This document shows positions 10,257 through 15,509 of a stretch of DNA of 33,201 nt, piece after piece (position 1 is the first letter of the stretch; each line of letters opens with the position of its first letter). The stretch is taken from IMG/VR virus record IMGVR_UViG_2574180227_000019. One strand, given 5' to 3'. A program made the translations under genes and the position numbers. This stretch comes from a virus. Taxonomy: Duplodnaviria; Heunggongvirae; Uroviricota; Caudoviricetes. The notes beneath the pieces are model-generated. The model was not told where the DNA came from, did no database searches, and worked only from the letters and a program-made list of their open reading frames with translations.

Positions 10257-11759
10257 TCACAAAATGAAACGGATCTGCGCGGCCATAAAGCGGAACTGGT
10301 TAACCAGGTCCGGTGTGCACAACACATCAAGGCGGTTGCGATCTGATGTGTTACGCTCCACGAGCAGATTCTTTTTAAAAGTGTCCAGGTTCTCGACCAA
10401 CCCCTGATCGACCCATTCCTCACCCAGAGCAATCAACTGAAGCGTCATGATTTCCGGGGTTACAATATTCTGTCCCGCGCTCACCGGTGTGCCATTATCC
10501 GCCAGCTTATGGCGCGGAAAACGCTGCGTGATGAACGTTCGCAGGGAGTAACGCAGATATGAAAGGGTGTAGACGGTTTCCACATCCAGATAGCTGGGGT
10601 CATTGTCTCCATAGGCGTTCTGACGATACATCGTCACCTGACGTTCGATTTGCACCACATCACCGGTTGCGACGGTTACTGTAGCGATACCGCTCCACAG
10701 CAGGCTGTTTCGCTCTTCACGGGTCAGACGATCCGCTGCGGCGGGTGCCAGTCGGGGCGTGATGGCCAGTGTCTGAAGTGGACGTGCCGGATCCGAAGAT
10801 AATGACGGTGCGCATGTCGCACACACCGAGGCTGCCCACAGATAATCGGGTTCCGGTGCTTTTGGAATAGCCGTACAGGTAGCAAGAAAATCGTTACGTT
10901 TTTCACCGAACGCCTGTACTTCTCCGAATGTGCCCGTGTGAGCCATCCAGATGACTCCATCGGACATTTTGACCGGTCCCCAGCGTTTCAGCAGTTCATC
11001 GCTGATCACCTTCAGGTTTGCGTCATCCTTATAGGGCATGACGATGTAGTTGTACTGACGATCCCCCATCCCCGCCACGCTGCGGGTGATATCCGGGTTT
11101 GTGGCCTTCTGTTTTGGAGATGTTATCTGCAATGTAAGGCCGGAAGGGGTGGTTTCACCGTCGTAATAGTTCACACGTAAATCATGAACTGAGCACTCAC
11201 CGGTAAAACGGGCATTCACCCCCATACTGCCTTTAAGGCCTTCAGCATTATCTCCACTGACTTCTGCTGCATAAGCCGTGAATGGTGCATCAACATCGGC
11301 GTTAATGACCTTCACAAGTGCTTCCACAAGCGCTTTACCTTTTTGCCCTGTACCGACAGCCAGCAGATAACGGCGACCACCAATATAGACGCATAACACA
11401 CCGTCTGCCGTCGCCGTACCAATGATATTCATCACACACGCCTGCGGCTGACCAGTGCCCGCCCCCTGGGCAATGGCATATAACTCTGTGTCGGGATTAA
11501 TGGCGATGAATTCCGCCACCATCAGCGCAATCATGGAACCACGCCCCCAAAGCTCTCTTGCCTGAGATGCACGGGTAATACGTACAGGAATGTCCAGTTG
11601 ACCGGAACCCTGTACGGCGGTGTCTTTCATGGCAGCCTGCCCGAACAGCAACACAGACTGACGTTGCGCCGGGGTGCCGGTGACGGCCATGGAATTATCA
11701 AATTCAATCTGTACAAGCGGGATGCGGTTATCATCCCCAATCTGATTAAAACTGATCAT
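10257..11759 (-). CDS. Contractile tail sheath protein (Mu L-like)
   Basis: 500 aa ORF, ATG at 11757-11759, followed by the tube gene; size and synteny. Confidence 0.75.
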   Translation of the reverse strand: MISFNQIGDDNRIPLVQIEFDNSMAVTGTPAQRQSVLLFGQAAMKDTAVQGSGQLDIPVRITRASQARELWGRGSMIALMVAEFIAINPDTELYAIAQGAGTGQPQACVMNIIGTATADGVLCVYIGGRRYLLAVGTGQKGKALVEALVKVINADVDAPFTAYAAEVSGDNAEGLKGSMGVNARFTGECSVHDLRVNYYDGETTPSGLTLQITSPKQKATNPDITRSVAGMGDRQYNYIVMPYKDDANLKVISDELLKRWGPVKMSDGVIWMAHTGTFGEVQAFGEKRNDFLATCTAIPKAPEPDYLWAASVCATCAPSLSSDPARPLQTLAITPRLAPAAADRLTREERNSLLWSGIATVTVATGDVVQIERQVTMYRQNAYGDNDPSYLDVETVYTLSYLRYSLRTFITQRFPRHKLADNGTPVSAGQNIVTPEIMTLQLIALGEEWVDQGLVENLDTFKKNLLVERNTSDRNRLDVLCTPDLVNQFRFMAAQIRFIL

Positions 11760-12037: not shown

Positions 12038-12598
12038 TTACAGTTCCTCCGGCGGTTCGACCGCCGTTGTCGTGTTCCCCGGCAAATCAATATGTGCCTC
12101 AAACGGCGGCGTACCGGGCGGCTCCACAAAGGTTTCGTAATGACGCAGGAAGTCGTCCAGCGAGCTGATATCGGTCAGCGGTGCGATCATTTCCTCGCAG
12201 GAGAAATAAAGCGCATACATCACCGCACCACTGTTCGCCTGGGTTTCGGTGTAACCGTTGACCGCCTTTTCAAAGTAAAGCGGTGAGGTTTTTTCGGTTC
12301 TGAAGCCGTTAAGCACGGCAATCAGCCGGGCCACAATCTGATACAGTCCGGGACGGCTGGCCTCACGCCCGTTGAGCATGTCGCCGATGACGTAGAACAC
12401 CCAGTGACTGACCAGGCGACCACGGGTACGGCCTTCACCGGCACCCAGCCAGGCAACGTAGATCGCCGGAGCGTTAATCAGCATGGTGCGCAGTACGCTG
12501 TCGCTCCAGTCGCCGGGATGCGTGTCAACAGACACAAGTTCATTCCCGAAATACTCACGGATACGGGCGATGTATGCCTGTTCGGTTTCCGTAATCAT
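12038..12598 (-). CDS. Head-tail joining protein (Mu gp37-like)
   Basis: 186 aa ORF; synteny only. Confidence 0.45.
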   Translation of the reverse strand: MITETEQAYIARIREYFGNELVSVDTHPGDWSDSVLRTMLINAPAIYVAWLGAGEGRTRGRLVSHWVFYVIGDMLNGREASRPGLYQIVARLIAVLNGFRTEKTSPLYFEKAVNGYTETQANSGAVMYALYFSCEEMIAPLTDISSLDDFLRHYETFVEPPGTPPFEAHIDLPGNTTTAVEPPEEL

Positions 12599-13014
12599 AT
12601 GAAGCCCTTCTGGTTGCGCCCGAATACCGCTGCATCAGACTGAACCTGTGGTAAATCCCCGGATTCAGGGGCCGCACCGTTCGTATCCACACCTACCGGC
12701 ACATTGCCGTTCATGACATCTTTCAGCCAGGCCAGCGCTTCACGGTAACGGTCACGCGCCTGATCGGAGGCTCGCTGATCGCACAGGTAATAAAAGGCAA
12801 TCGCGCAACAGTGCTGAACAAGAACAGCCGGGATAACCTCCAGCGGCAGCGTGTAACGGGCGGACAGATAGCTGTCGATAAGGGCTGACGCATCTGTCAG
12901 CGCCCGGTTCAGCTTGCGCGTGTCCAGCTCATCCGAACGGGGCACTGCCAGTAACGGCCTGAGCAAATCCTCGCGGTAACGCGCCCGCATATCGCTTTCA
13001 GTGGCGTAATTCAT
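12595..13014 (-). CDS. Head-tail connector protein (Mu gp36-like)
   Basis: 139 aa ORF; synteny only. Confidence 0.45.
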   Translation of the reverse strand: MNYATESDMRARYREDLLRPLLAVPRSDELDTRKLNRALTDASALIDSYLSARYTLPLEVIPAVLVQHCCAIAFYYLCDQRASDQARDRYREALAWLKDVMNGNVPVGVDTNGAAPESGDLPQVQSDAAVFGRNQKGFI

Positions 13015-13394
13015 GCGCGGGCCTTTTTCGCCTGTTTCGCTTTGTTACCGGTCTTTTTCCGGGGAGCATCCTGTCCGGCTTCGGCTTCGGCTTCGGCTTC
13101 GGCTTCGGCTTCGGCTAAATCTGTACCGGCCACTGCATGAACCACCCCCGCCACGCTCCCCGCATCATCAGCAGGCGTCTGTAGTATTCGCACAGTGAGG
13201 CATGGCTCCGCCTCCAGTCGGGCAAGCTGCTCCGGGGTGACCTCAACCTGCTGACGTCCACGCGTGAACAGGAACCCCGCACGACGAAACGCCGAACGAC
13301 TGCAACGCACTTCTGCCAGCACCGTGACAGAATTGTCACCACTGACCTGAAGACCTGAATCATCTGTTGCTGCCACAGTGTGATGTTCATTCAT
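13011..13394 (-). CDS. Hypothetical protein (Mu gp35 position) with internal (Glu-Ala)6 repeat and Lys-rich C-terminus
   Basis: 127 aa ORF, ATG at 13392-13394 with GGAGGG upstream; contains the (GCTTCG)n repeat in frame. Confidence 0.5.
   Translation of the reverse strand: MNEHHTVAATDDSGLQVSGDNSVTVLAEVRCSRSAFRRAGFLFTRGRQQVEVTPEQLARLEAEPCLTVRILQTPADDAGSVAGVVHAVAGTDLAEAEAEAEAEAEAGQDAPRKKTGNKAKQAKKARA
13076..13116. repeat. Hexanucleotide tandem repeat (cggctt)x6.8, in frame, encoding (EA)6
   Basis: Read directly: cggctt repeated 6 times plus a partial copy at 13076..13116. Confidence 0.9.
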
Positions 13395-13409
13395 ATTTGC
13401 CCTCCGCAG

Positions 13410-13432
13410 GGGCCGGGCCGTAAGCCCGGCTC
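13410..13432 (-). promoter_or_regulatory. GC-rich hairpin immediately downstream of the major capsid gene
   Basis: ccgggc / gcccgg stem (13413-13418 / 13424-13429), extendable by about 2 bp, loop cgtaa; no U-tract follows, and the next gene's Shine-Dalgarno lies just beyond. Confidence 0.3.
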
Positions 13433-13437
13433 ACCGT

Positions 13438-14385
13438 TTACAGATAATCCGCGACAACCAGCTCCAGCTTGCCCTTCATCTCGTTAGAGACGGTGGCGTT
13501 TCCGTCTGCGAACAGTTCACGCTCCAGCAGCTGCACCGCCTGTTTTTCCAGCGAGGTGGGGACAACAATATGGGTGGGTTTGATGCCGAGCTTGCGGCCA
13601 CCGTCAGCGGTAAATTCGCGCATGGCTGACCAGCCGTGCCACAGTGCATCCAGCGTCAGCGGTGACTGCATCATGTAGGCCATCTGCCAGAAGCCGTAGC
13701 CCACATTGCGACGGGCGGAAGCACCGAACACAAATTCGTTATCGGTGAATGCGCGACCTTCATCGACTTTGGTCTGGGCAACCAGTTCAGCCTTACGGCG
13801 ATCCTGATAAATCAGCGGTTTGATTGCGCGTGAACAGTCGAGCAGATACCAGGCAGGACCGCTGTAATCCGCCTGTGCACCGACAGAGCCGGTTTTTGCC
13901 ACAAACATATTGCTGACCATCTGCGCATCCCCGGAGCCATCCACTTTGGGGTAAACAGGATGTTCGGTATCAAAGAAGTTCTGGCCGTCATAGCAGGCCG
14001 CATTAATCCCGTCACGAAGAGCAGCAAAGACCAGTTCATCCGGTTGTGCCGCAGCAGCGCGCCCCATCTCCTGGAACAACGGGGAATAAATACCGAGGTT
14101 ATCGTCTTCGAAGTCATCACGGTTAATGGCGACGGTGCCTTCAAAGGTTTTGTTCACGATGGCATAGCCATAGGCCTTCATCTTCTCGATGACGCGGGAG
14201 CCGATCCACTCACGGAACTGCGGGAACTGCCCCAGCCAGCCGTAGGTGTTGGATTTCGAGGTGGAGGGCACGGTCATCGCAATTTTTTTGTACTGCGACG
14301 GGGCCATGGACATCCCGGCCTGAAAATCAGAACGGTAGCCCGTCATCAGGGCGGTGATCATCGCCGGTGTAATCGGGGTAGGCAT
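13438..14385 (-). CDS. Major capsid protein (Mu T-like)
   Basis: 315 aa ORF directly after protease/scaffold gene I with 1 nt overlap; size and position match Mu T. Confidence 0.75.
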   Translation of the reverse strand: MPTPITPAMITALMTGYRSDFQAGMSMAPSQYKKIAMTVPSTSKSNTYGWLGQFPQFREWIGSRVIEKMKAYGYAIVNKTFEGTVAINRDDFEDDNLGIYSPLFQEMGRAAAAQPDELVFAALRDGINAACYDGQNFFDTEHPVYPKVDGSGDAQMVSNMFVAKTGSVGAQADYSGPAWYLLDCSRAIKPLIYQDRRKAELVAQTKVDEGRAFTDNEFVFGASARRNVGYGFWQMAYMMQSPLTLDALWHGWSAMREFTADGGRKLGIKPTHIVVPTSLEKQAVQLLERELFADGNATVSNEMKGKLELVVADYL

Positions 14386-15509
14386 TATTGCATTTCCTCT
14401 TTCATTTTCAGGAATTCGGCTTCGGTTTTACCCAGAAGATGGGCGGCGGCGATATCTTCAGCCGACAGCGAGGCGGTGGCGGTCTTTTTATCCGGCACGG
14501 TCACGGTGTCGGTCTGAAGACCGGTCAGAGCCGCAACCGGCTGGCGGGCGTCAAGCTGCGCAGAAAGTGCTGCAACGCCAATCTGTTGTCCGAGTCCTTC
14601 CATGTATCCGCGTTCGCTTTTGAAAATGCGTCCTTCGGACTCGGCCTTATCCAGCAACTGCTCCAGCGTGGTGCTGCCGTGCTGTGCCGACAGCGCGACA
14701 TATTCGGTACGCAGGGCGTTATACGTCTCAACGGGCACGTATTTCGTCAGATCAATACTGCCGCCAGCCGGTGTGCCTTTTGCGGTTTCCAGCTCTGCCG
14801 ACAGACTGGCGACCTGTGTTTTCAGGTTGTCGTGTGCATCCGCACGGGGTTTGATCCCGGTGAGGGCAGACAGCGCCGCCGTGCCCAGCTCCGGCGTAAA
14901 TTCGTCACCGTCAGCCACGGTCAGACCGAGCGCCGTCAGCAACTGGCGTAATTGCTCATTCATGGAGGTATCCTTTAAAGGAGGGTTTAAGGCGTTATAA
15001 AGGTCATCCGCCGACAGCGCGGCGACAGGATTCATGCCGGTCAGACCGGGGTCACCGGTAATAGCCAGCATCCGAAGTTCGACAGGTTCGCCGGTGTTCT
15101 CGTCATAGCCAATCACCGGTGAAAACCAGGGGAATTCGTTATTACGCAGATGTTCAAGGGCCGGAGGGTTCCACTTCGGGCGCACCTCGAAGCCACGCTC
15201 TTCACTGAAGCGGAAGTTTTCCGGTGAAGCCGTCACAAAACCGGCAGCCGGTGCCTGATGCCCCTTAATCAGGGTCTGGTGGTTGTAGTCAATTTTTACC
15301 GGCTGATTGAGCGCCACAACCCGGGATACCATGCGCTCAACGGTCGCACGGTTAATCAGCCAGCCTTCAGCCGGTTTTTCCGGGCGACCGTCACGGGCCT
15401 TTACCCGACCGGCTGGCATGATCTGACACCAGTCACCGTCCCCGTCTGCGGACAGGCTGATGGCATTCAGAATGGCATAAGCAAGTTTGGGCGTGTTTTT
15501 CGTCTTCAT
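14385..15509 (-). CDS. Prohead protease / scaffold protein (Mu I-like)
   Basis: 374 aa ORF between G and T; N-terminus MKTKNTPKLAYAILNAISLSADGDGDWCQIMPAGRVKA... resembles Mu gpI as remembered. Confidence 0.75.
   Translation of the reverse strand: MKTKNTPKLAYAILNAISLSADGDGDWCQIMPAGRVKARDGRPEKPAEGWLINRATVERMVSRVVALNQPVKIDYNHQTLIKGHQAPAAGFVTASPENFRFSEERGFEVRPKWNPPALEHLRNNEFPWFSPVIGYDENTGEPVELRMLAITGDPGLTGMNPVAALSADDLYNALNPPLKDTSMNEQLRQLLTALGLTVADGDEFTPELGTAALSALTGIKPRADAHDNLKTQVASLSAELETAKGTPAGGSIDLTKYVPVETYNALRTEYVALSAQHGSTTLEQLLDKAESEGRIFKSERGYMEGLGQQIGVAALSAQLDARQPVAALTGLQTDTVTVPDKKTATASLSAEDIAAAHLLGKTEAEFLKMKEEMQ

What the first reader, a model, noticed from the sequence alone, without database searches (positions are those of the whole stretch)
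13076..13116. In-frame hexanucleotide microsatellite (cggctt)n encoding (Glu-Ala)6 in a head-module gene
A perfect 6.8-copy hexamer repeat lies inside the gp35-position gene, upstream of a Lys-rich C-terminal tail. Unit length divisible by three means slippage changes repeat number without frameshifting, so the protein may be length-polymorphic between isolates.
Basis: seen in the sequence. Interest (0 to 1): 0.4.

Follow-up and report, generated by a model that had tools for sequence, protein, structure and literature searches.

The report
Known variable repeat in prophage gene

Summary
Window 13076-13116 is a perfect (CGGCTT)6.8 tract. On the coding (minus) strand it reads (GAA GCC)n and encodes A(EA)6 in a 127-aa gene (13011-13394) between the Mu-type major head gene gpT and gp36.

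In complete E. coli genomes and IMG/VR prophage contigs the tract runs from 1 to 20 units, always in steps of 6 bp. Two near-clonal cattle isolates have 20.3 kb of identical flanking sequence but 14 versus 13 units.

It is not new. The published primers for MLVA locus EHC-5 (Izumiya et al. 2010 scheme) match exactly on either side of this repeat in O157:H7 Sakai prophage Sp18 (ECs_4975), and match the window with one mismatch each. Published EHC-5 data show the same polymorphism.

The protein belongs to the HI1506/Mu gp35 family (Pfam FluMu_N; PDB 2OUT), whose function is unknown. This E. coli subtype lacks the family's usual C-terminal helical domain. In its place are the EA repeat and a Lys-rich tail, both predicted disordered.

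Best explanation: replication slippage in a pure in-frame hexamer within a length-tolerant disordered segment, with near-neutral effect. It is not an on/off switch. Low interest; already known.

The parts
13076..13116 (-). Perfect hexanucleotide repeat: (CGGCTT)6.8 on the + strand, (GAAGCC)6 on the coding strand. Encodes A(EA)6, residues 94-106. This is the VNTR core of MLVA locus EHC-5.
   Evidence: copy-number variation.
13011..13394 (-). Gene for a 127-aa HI1506-related / Mu gp35-position protein (orthologue of Sakai Sp18 ECs_4975). GGAGG ribosome-binding site upstream. Its stop overlaps the gp36 start (ATGA at 13011-13014).
13179..13328 (-). Folded FluMu_N domain (residues about 23-72; beta-hairpin, helix, strand). 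It is the only part of the protein predicted with confidence.
13014..13076 (-). Lys/Arg-rich C-terminal tail GQDAPRKKTGNKAKQAKKARA (residues 107-127), predicted disordered. It stands where other family members have a roughly 50-aa helical C-domain.
13037..13059 (+). Binding site of the EHC-5 reverse primer CCGCTTTGTTACCGGTCTTTTTC (1 mismatch in the window, exact in Sakai).
13165..13187 (-). Binding site of the EHC-5 forward primer ATACTACAGACGTCTGCTGATGA (1 mismatch in the window, exact in Sakai). The predicted amplicon in the window is 13037-13187, 151 bp.
13021..13029 (-). Second, minor in-frame length polymorphism. The 9 bp GCCTTTTTC (residues KKA of the tail) are present here and absent in Sakai-type alleles. 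It lies between short direct repeats.
   Evidence: TRF period-9 row; alignments.

Best explanation
The tract is a slippage-prone, in-frame coding microsatellite (a VNTR) in the gp35-position gene of an Sp18-type Mu-like prophage of E. coli. Because all units are identical at the DNA level (GAAGCC), strand misalignment during replication adds or removes whole 6-bp units. Each event adds or removes one Glu-Ala dipeptide and keeps the frame.

The repeat lies after the folded FluMu_N domain, in a C-terminal segment predicted to be disordered, between that domain and a basic Lys-rich tail. Length changes there are tolerated, and alleles from 1 to at least 20 units coexist in the population. The variation is most likely near-neutral. 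It gives a graded change in spacer length, not an on/off switch.

Shown: the repeat, its reading frame, the polymorphism, recent one-unit changes, its identity with EHC-5, family membership of the N-domain, and absence of the C-domain. Inferred: slippage as the mechanism, neutrality, and disorder (prediction only).
For: - The repeat is perfect and far beyond chance.
- All length differences among E. coli genomes are multiples of 6 bp, from 1 to 20 units. There are 14 allele sizes in the 56 sampled matches. Simpson diversity is about 0.92 (my arithmetic from the counts).
- Near-clonal strains 114 and 121 have identical 20.3-kb flanks and 14 versus 13 units.
- Expansion occurred on several haplotype backgrounds: AGTDL with a KQAKKARA tail, AGTDL with an EQARA tail, ACTDL, and the roughly 88%-identical AETGADL lineage, which itself spans 1-17 units.
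- Mutated units have themselves expanded, giving AGAGAG, AEVEVE and AESESE. This fits a DNA-level process rather than selection for a particular peptide.
- One-unit alleles recur unchanged: 17 of the 40 matches listed are 30 bp shorter than the query (1761 bp), and one of them, fetched as L010 (strain 107), has one unit. A single unit cannot slip.
- EHC-5 primers flank the tract. Published MLVA tables list alleles 2, 3, 5, 6, 7, 9, 10, 11, 12, 13 and so on, plus 'absent', in O157 isolates.
- AF2 gives pLDDT of about 41-49 and no secondary structure for residues 78-127, against 80-89 for residues 23-72.
- The homologue HI1506 is described, from my recollection of Sari et al. 2007, as two domains joined by an unstructured 30-residue linker.
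Against: - Neutrality is not demonstrated. No fitness, burst-size or virion data exist for different alleles.
- Disorder rests on an AF2 model built from a shallow 16-sequence alignment. (EA)n peptides can form helices.
- The function of the protein is unknown. Mu gp35 was not resolved in the 2025 Mu cryo-EM study (PMC11915804). A role for spacer length therefore cannot be excluded.
- The frame and the basic tail are retained in nearly all alleles. This shows that the tail is under constraint. It says nothing either way about the spacer.
Confidence: 0.85

Rival explanations
1. Adaptive length tuning. The (EA)n segment is a functional acidic spacer between a capsid-binding domain and a DNA- or terminase-facing basic tail, by analogy with lambda gpFI. 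On this view, high-rate copy-number change lets the phage population sample spacer lengths, either to tune packaging or assembly efficiency or to vary a surface-exposed epitope.
For: - The gene sits exactly where lambda has FI (major capsid, then FI, then adaptor FII), here gpT, then gp35, then adaptor gp36 (lambda order from general knowledge).
- The basic tail is conserved across alleles while the spacer varies.
- Long alleles (10-14 units) are common rather than rare.
Against: - There is no functional data.
- Allele sizes are broadly spread from 1 to 20 with no clear optimum, and near-clonal isolates differ by one unit. That is the pattern expected of drift at a mutable locus.
- Other family members manage with unrelated, non-repetitive linkers.
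Confidence: 0.08
2. Phase-variation (contingency) switch. Repeat-number changes turn the gene, or the translationally coupled downstream gp36, on and off.
For: - The tract is a highly mutable simple repeat inside a coding region, as in classical contingency loci.
- The gp35 stop overlaps the gp36 start (ATGA), so a frameshift would also affect coupling.
Against: - The unit is 6 bp, so slippage cannot shift the frame.
- Every sampled length difference is a multiple of 6.
- All complete alleles fetched keep the same frame and tail.
- Frameshifted forms are rare singletons among 86 database clusters (for example P0072, P0049, P0054).
Confidence: 0.01
3. Sequencing or assembly artefact. The apparent copy-number differences arise from mis-assembly of a repeat, not from biology.
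For: - Short-read assemblies do break here. Many database proteins are 'partial' and end inside the repeat (P0060, P0066, P0067, P0069).
- IMG/VR contigs L004, L025 and L026 end within it.
Against: - The variation is seen in closed 'complete genome' assemblies.
- The tract, at 120 bp or less, is far shorter than long reads.
- The same polymorphism is measured independently by PCR fragment sizing in routine MLVA (PMC10062581).
Confidence: 0.02
4. The repeat acts at the nucleic-acid level, for example as a protein-binding array, an RNA structure or a translational pause that sets the gp35:gp36 ratio. On this view the peptide is incidental.
For: The tract lies about 60 nt upstream of the translationally coupled gp36 start. 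Nothing else supports this.
Against: - The unit is not self-complementary.
- A tract that can be 1 or 20 units long in apparently intact prophages is hard to reconcile with a dosage-sensitive cis element.
- No such element is known for Mu-like late operons.
Confidence: 0.02

Closest known systems
MLVA/VNTR locus EHC-5 of the Izumiya et al. 2010 EHEC O157/O26/O111 typing scheme
   Same: It is the same locus. Both published EHC-5 primers (S5 Table of PMC10062581) match uniquely and flank this repeat. The match is exact in Sakai Sp18 ECs_4975 and has 1 mismatch each in the window. The unit is 6 bp. The locus is absent from strains lacking the prophage, and published alleles range widely.
   Different: Nothing substantive. 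The window carries a 6-unit allele and primer-site SNPs. I could not read the 2010 paper itself, so its allele numbering and any offset are unverified.
HI1506 / FluMu gp35 / phage Mu gp35 (Pfam FluMu_N PF17891; PDB 2OUT)
   Same: - Same gene position, between major head gpT and gp36.
- A low-complexity segment follows that domain.
   Different: Mu gp35, the Edwardsiella protein and most distant members carry a conserved roughly 50-aa C-terminal helical domain (DLNxRIRxAVxxL...HFTxxGxPKV...). The Sp18-type protein lacks it. The EA repeat starts right after the conserved 'DL', and a 21-aa Lys-rich tail ends the protein. Other members have no tandem DNA repeat.
Phage lambda gpFI DNA-packaging chaperone (PDB 2LSM)
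   Same: - Small protein encoded directly after the major capsid gene and before the head-tail adaptor.
- One small folded domain plus a flexible segment.
- From memory, Popovic et al. 2012 reported prophage proteins structurally similar to gpFI. I believe these were HI1506 and YqbF.
   Different: There is no sequence similarity. The fold match is not specific. Domain order differs: the gpFI head-binding domain is C-terminal, whereas here the folded domain is N-terminal. No packaging role has been shown for any gp35.
Other coding 6-bp VNTRs used in E. coli O157 MLVA (for example the O157-series loci of the PulseNet scheme)
   Same: Short perfect repeats with high slippage rates, used as epidemiological markers and typed by fragment length (PMC10062581).
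   Different: EHC-5 is carried on a mobile Mu-like prophage. It is therefore present or absent by strain, and can occur in up to 4 copies per genome, which complicates typing.
Contingency loci (phase-variable simple-sequence repeats of Haemophilus and Neisseria)
   Same: A hypermutable simple repeat inside an ORF.
   Different: Here the unit is divisible by three, so the outcome is graded protein length rather than ON/OFF expression.

Membership tests
MLVA locus EHC-5 | Amplified by the EHC-5 primer pair (F ATACTACAGACGTCTGCTGATGA, R CCGCTTTGTTACCGGTCTTTTTC) | tested here: met
   There are unique matches at 13165-13187(-) and 13037-13059(+), with 1 mismatch each. Both are exact in Sakai L007 at 1648-1670 and 1508-1530. 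Both pairs flank the repeat.
MLVA locus EHC-5 | Variable number of short tandem units between isolates; locus absent in some strains | tested here: met
   The tract runs from 1 to 20 units across genomes. The locus is present in 228 of 5426 complete genomes. Published alleles include 0 (absent) and 2 to at least 13.
MLVA locus EHC-5 | Genomic coordinate and repeat unit as given in the original description (Izumiya et al. 2010) | not testable with these tools
   The paper is not held in the library. Identity rests on the primer sequences reproduced in PMC10062581.
HI1506 / Mu gp35 family (Pfam FluMu_N) | FluMu_N domain above the Pfam gathering score | tested here: met
   Score 37.5 bits against a cut-off of 25.8, E 2e-9. 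PDB 2OUT E 4.6e-5. BLASTP to Mu gp35 E 2e-12.
HI1506 / Mu gp35 family (Pfam FluMu_N) | Gene located between the Mu-type major head gene (gpT) and gp36 | tested here: met
HI1506 / Mu gp35 family (Pfam FluMu_N) | Second, C-terminal helical domain after a flexible linker (the two-domain architecture of HI1506 and Mu gp35) | tested here: not met
   Alignment A1 shows the C-domain in Mu gp35, P0084, P0087, P0090-92, P0095, P0096 and P0100. In the window protein it is replaced by (EA)6 plus a 21-aa basic tail. AF2 predicts no structure there. The protein is therefore a truncated or variant subtype (PHROG 3622, against 2498 for Mu gp35).
Lambda gpFI-like packaging chaperones | Fold of the head-binding domain similar to the gpFI C-domain | tested here: inconclusive
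   [not shown]
Lambda gpFI-like packaging chaperones | Binds the major capsid protein and stimulates terminase-dependent packaging | not testable with these tools
   This needs biochemistry or genetics. Mu gp35 was unresolved in the Mu cryo-EM study.
Phase-variable contingency locus | Repeat-number change shifts the reading frame or alters promoter spacing to switch expression | tested here: not met
   The unit is 6 bp. All observed length differences are multiples of 6, and the frame and tail are preserved.

The most novel reading that the evidence does not exclude
The Sp18-type gp35 may be a gpFI-like assembly or packaging accessory protein whose ancestral C-terminal helical domain has been replaced by an evolvable module of an acidic (EA)n spacer plus a basic tail. 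On this reading, the hypermutable spacer length is used by the phage population to tune an interaction between capsid and DNA or terminase, or to vary a virion-exposed segment. That would be a graded 'contingency' mechanism in a phage structural or assembly gene rather than neutral drift.
Probability: 0.06. Interest if true: 0.45.

Novelty: already known. Interest (0 to 1): 0.15.

Why it matters
In practice, the repeat is a working epidemiological marker (EHC-5) for outbreak typing of enterohaemorrhagic E. coli. Three things affect how EHC-5 alleles and short-read assemblies should be read:
- It sits on a mobile Mu-like prophage.
- It can be absent or multi-copy.
- It breaks short-read assemblies.

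In biological terms it is a clean example of a coding microsatellite tolerated in a disordered protein segment. It also draws attention to gp35, one of the few Mu head-module proteins still without a function, and to a subtype in which the usual C-terminal domain is replaced by low-complexity sequence. None of this changes current understanding.

Tried and rejected
- Chance: rejected by the shuffle test.
- Phase variation: rejected, because the unit is 6 bp and all differences are multiples of 6.
- Second MLVA locus EHC-6 on the same prophage: its primers do not match the window.
- Antisense ORF 13013-13198 (an (RL)n peptide) and alternative-frame ORF 13115-13390: no family support. I treated them as by-products of the real gene.
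They gave only one distant hit, L014. In the protein searches, close relatives are nearly all E. coli or Shigella, and the nearest other genus is Edwardsiella at 62% identity.
- Literature: searches for Sp18+VNTR, ECs4975, HI1506 and YqbF found nothing useful. Izumiya 2010 and Popovic 2012 are not held.
- NCBIfam: no model hit. PHROGs: only 'unknown function' families.

Full report
**Observation**

Window 13076-13116 is a perfect hexanucleotide array. Tandem Repeats Finder gives period 6, 6.8 copies, 100% matches, no indels and consensus CGGCTT, and the raw sequence agrees. It is by far the strongest tandem repeat in the 33-kb window. The longest perfect period-6 run is 41 nt. In 200 dinucleotide-preserving shuffles the mean is 13.5 nt and the maximum 17 nt.

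The tract lies in a minus-strand ORF, 13011..13394, of 127 aa. Read on that strand it is GCC GAA GCC GAA..., giving residues 94-106 AEAEAEAEAEAEA. The tail GQDAPRKKTGNKAKQAKKARA follows.

**Genomic context**

The window is a Mu-like prophage. On the minus strand the order is:
- Mu I protease/scaffold, 14385-15509
- major head gpT, 13438-14385 (Pfam Mu-like_gpT, E 3e-119)
- the 127-aa gene
- Phage_Mu_Gp36, 12595-13014
- Phage_Mu_Gp37, 12038-12598
- a 92-aa gp38-position ORF
- tail sheath, 10257-11759

The order is the same as Mup32, 34, 35, 36, 37, 38 and 39 in phage Mu.

The 127-aa protein hits Pfam FluMu_N (37.5 bits, cut-off 25.8). It also hits the NMR structure 2OUT of H. influenzae HI1506, 'FluMu protein gp35' (E 4.6e-5), and is 51% identical to Mu gp35 over 41 residues of the N-domain.

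At the DNA level the region is 95-99% identical to prophages in 228 of 5426 complete E. coli genomes, where NCBI annotates the gene as 'HI1506-related protein'. In O157:H7 Sakai it is ECs_4975 in prophage Sp18, 'Mu-like phage'.

**Polymorphism**

The gene was searched against complete E. coli genomes and the hits sampled evenly down the ranking. This gave 56 full-length matches. Their lengths differ from the window only by multiples of 6 bp. They correspond to 1, 2, 4-14 and 20 units, which is 14 allele sizes.

I fetched representative loci and translated them. Proteins of 116-152 aa differ in length only by the number of EA units (1, 2, 3, 6, 7, 8, 11, 13, 14, 16, 17, 20). The one exception is a separate 9-bp tail indel. 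IMG/VR prophage contigs add 4, 5, 9 and an interrupted 12. They also show that a more divergent lineage, about 88% identical in the N-domain with the local sequence 'AETGADL', independently spans 1-17 units.

Two near-clonal cattle isolates, strains 114 and 121, have 10,046 + 10,283 bp of flanking sequence with no mismatch, yet carry 14 versus 13 units. This is a direct trace of a recent one-unit slippage event.

At the protein-database level, mutated units have themselves expanded (AGAGAG, AEVEVE, AESESE). Frameshifted forms are rare singletons.

**Already known**

A paper from the Japanese EHEC surveillance network (PMC10062581) lists the primers of the 17-locus MLVA scheme of Izumiya et al. 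2010. The EHC-5 primers are ATACTACAGACGTCTGCTGATGA and CCGCTTTGTTACCGGTCTTTTTC.

Each primer matches the window once, at 13165-13187(-) and 13037-13059(+), with one mismatch each. Both match Sakai ECs_4975 exactly. In both sequences they flank the repeat. The predicted amplicons are 151 bp for the window (6 units) and 163 bp for Sakai (8 units). The 12-bp difference equals two units.

The same paper's tables show EHC-5 absent ('0') in most O157 clades. Where present, values such as 2, 3, 5, 6, 7, 9-13 are recorded. This fits a hypervariable repeat on a variably present prophage.

[quoted passage not shown] I could not open the 2010 paper itself. Its coordinates and allele numbering remain unverified.

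**The protein**

A full HMMER scan of 1.8 billion representative proteins found only 18 relatives. The typical family member has four parts:
- a variable N-terminal lead;
- the roughly 50-aa FluMu_N domain;
- a low-complexity Pro/Ala/Gly/acidic linker;
- a conserved roughly 50-aa C-terminal domain (DLNxRIRxAVxxL...NPxHFTxxGxPKVxAV...LG...QIxAAL).

Mu gp35, the Edwardsiella protein P0084, and P0087, P0090-92, P0095, P0096 and P0100 all follow this pattern. In the Sp18-type protein, homology runs up to the conserved 'DL'. The EA repeat then starts exactly where the first C-domain helix would begin, and the protein ends in a 21-aa basic tail. Two distant members (P0101, P0097) also end in Lys/Ala-rich low-complexity tails.

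AlphaFold2 on a 16-sequence alignment gives pLDDT 80-89 for residues 23-72 (beta-hairpin, helix, strand). Residues 78-127, which include the repeat, score about 41-49 with no secondary structure. A domain-only model reaches pLDDT 84.6.

The function of the family is unknown:
- PHROGs list it as 'unknown function'.
- NCBIfam has no model.
- The 2025 cryo-EM study of Mu calls gp35 'probably structural', possibly 'connector-related', and could not resolve it (PMC11915804).

The gene order parallels lambda, where major capsid E is followed by FI and then adaptor FII. Together with a folded domain plus a flexible segment, this makes a gpFI-like packaging-accessory role a reasonable hypothesis. The fold evidence here is inconclusive. 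The literature link (Popovic et al. 2012) is from my memory only.

**Mechanism**

The best-supported account is replication slippage in a pure 6-bp array, which adds or deletes Glu-Ala dipeptides in a disordered, length-tolerant segment. It fits the following:
- the strict 6-bp quantisation;
- the DNA-level purity of the units;
- expansion of mutated units;
- independent expansion on several haplotypes;
- one-unit differences between otherwise identical prophages;
- recurrence of the unchanged one-unit allele, which cannot slip.

An on/off phase switch is excluded by the unit length. Assembly artefact is excluded by closed genomes and independent PCR sizing, although the repeat does truncate short-read contigs. 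Adaptive tuning of spacer length cannot be excluded, but nothing positive supports it. The allele spectrum is broad and has no obvious optimum.

**Verdict**

The feature is an already known VNTR (EHC-5) in a gp35/HI1506-family gene of an Sp18-type Mu-like prophage. Interest is low. The only mildly new points are descriptive: the repeat and basic tail stand in place of the family's C-terminal domain, and the repeat lies in a predicted disordered region.

Noticed in passing
window 13014-13116 (-); alignment A1: The Sp18-type gp35 lacks the roughly 50-aa C-terminal helical domain found in Mu gp35, the Edwardsiella protein and most distant homologues. The EA repeat begins immediately after the conserved 'DL' where that domain would start. 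MAFFT aligns 'GQDAPRKKT' with 'EADNPAHFT', so the tail may be a degenerate remnant of the lost domain.
   Followed up: partly
window 13021-13029: A second in-frame length polymorphism: the 9 bp GCCTTTTTC (tail residues KKA) are present here and absent in Sakai-type alleles (AKQAKKARA versus AEQARA). It is flanked by short direct repeats.
   Followed up: partly
P0060, P0066, P0067, P0069; L004, L025, L026: Many database proteins are 'partial' and end inside the EA repeat, and several IMG/VR contigs terminate within it. The repeat, or multi-copy prophages with different alleles, breaks short-read assemblies, so long alleles are probably under-counted in draft genomes.
   Followed up: partly
P0046-P0048, P0052, P0061, P0002, P0003, P0009: Variant units have themselves expanded: (AG)n runs next to (AE)n, and AEVEVE or AESESE at the 5' end of the array. 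This shows point mutation followed by slippage of the mutated unit.
   Followed up: partly
P0072: A rare allele reads the repeat in another frame (…TKPKPKPDEGYS…) and then returns to the normal tail. This implies compensating indels on either side of the tract. It is seen on one contig only.
   Followed up: no
window 13403-13444 (-), core stem 13412-13430: There is a GC-rich stem-loop (GCCGGGC-UUACG-GCCCGGC, -23.6 kcal/mol) in the 43-nt gap between the gpT stop and the gp35 ribosome-binding site, with no U-tract. The z-score is only -1.9 against shuffles. It may be an mRNA-stabilising or attenuating hairpin after the major capsid gene.
   Followed up: partly
E. coli genomes; H41 and H42: Some genomes carry up to 4 copies of this prophage region, and one copy is on a plasmid record. 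In two Stx-converting phage records the Mu-like phage is annotated as inserted inside the Stx phage. Multi-copy carriage would give mixed EHC-5 amplicons.
   Followed up: no
[not shown]
   Followed up: partly
window 13013-13198 (+) and 13115-13390 (-): An antisense ORF encodes (RL)n across the repeat, and a 91-aa alternative-frame ORF overlaps gp35. The latter has been called as a protein in at least one public assembly (P0083). Both are probably spurious.
   Followed up: no
PMC10062581 S3 Table: In the single O157 clade whose rows were visible in the excerpt (clade 2), MLVA loci EHC-5 and EHC-6 show the same 'absent' frequency (0.762), although individual strains differ. This suggests linked carriage. 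However, the EHC-6 primers do not match this window, so EHC-6 must lie elsewhere.
   Followed up: partly
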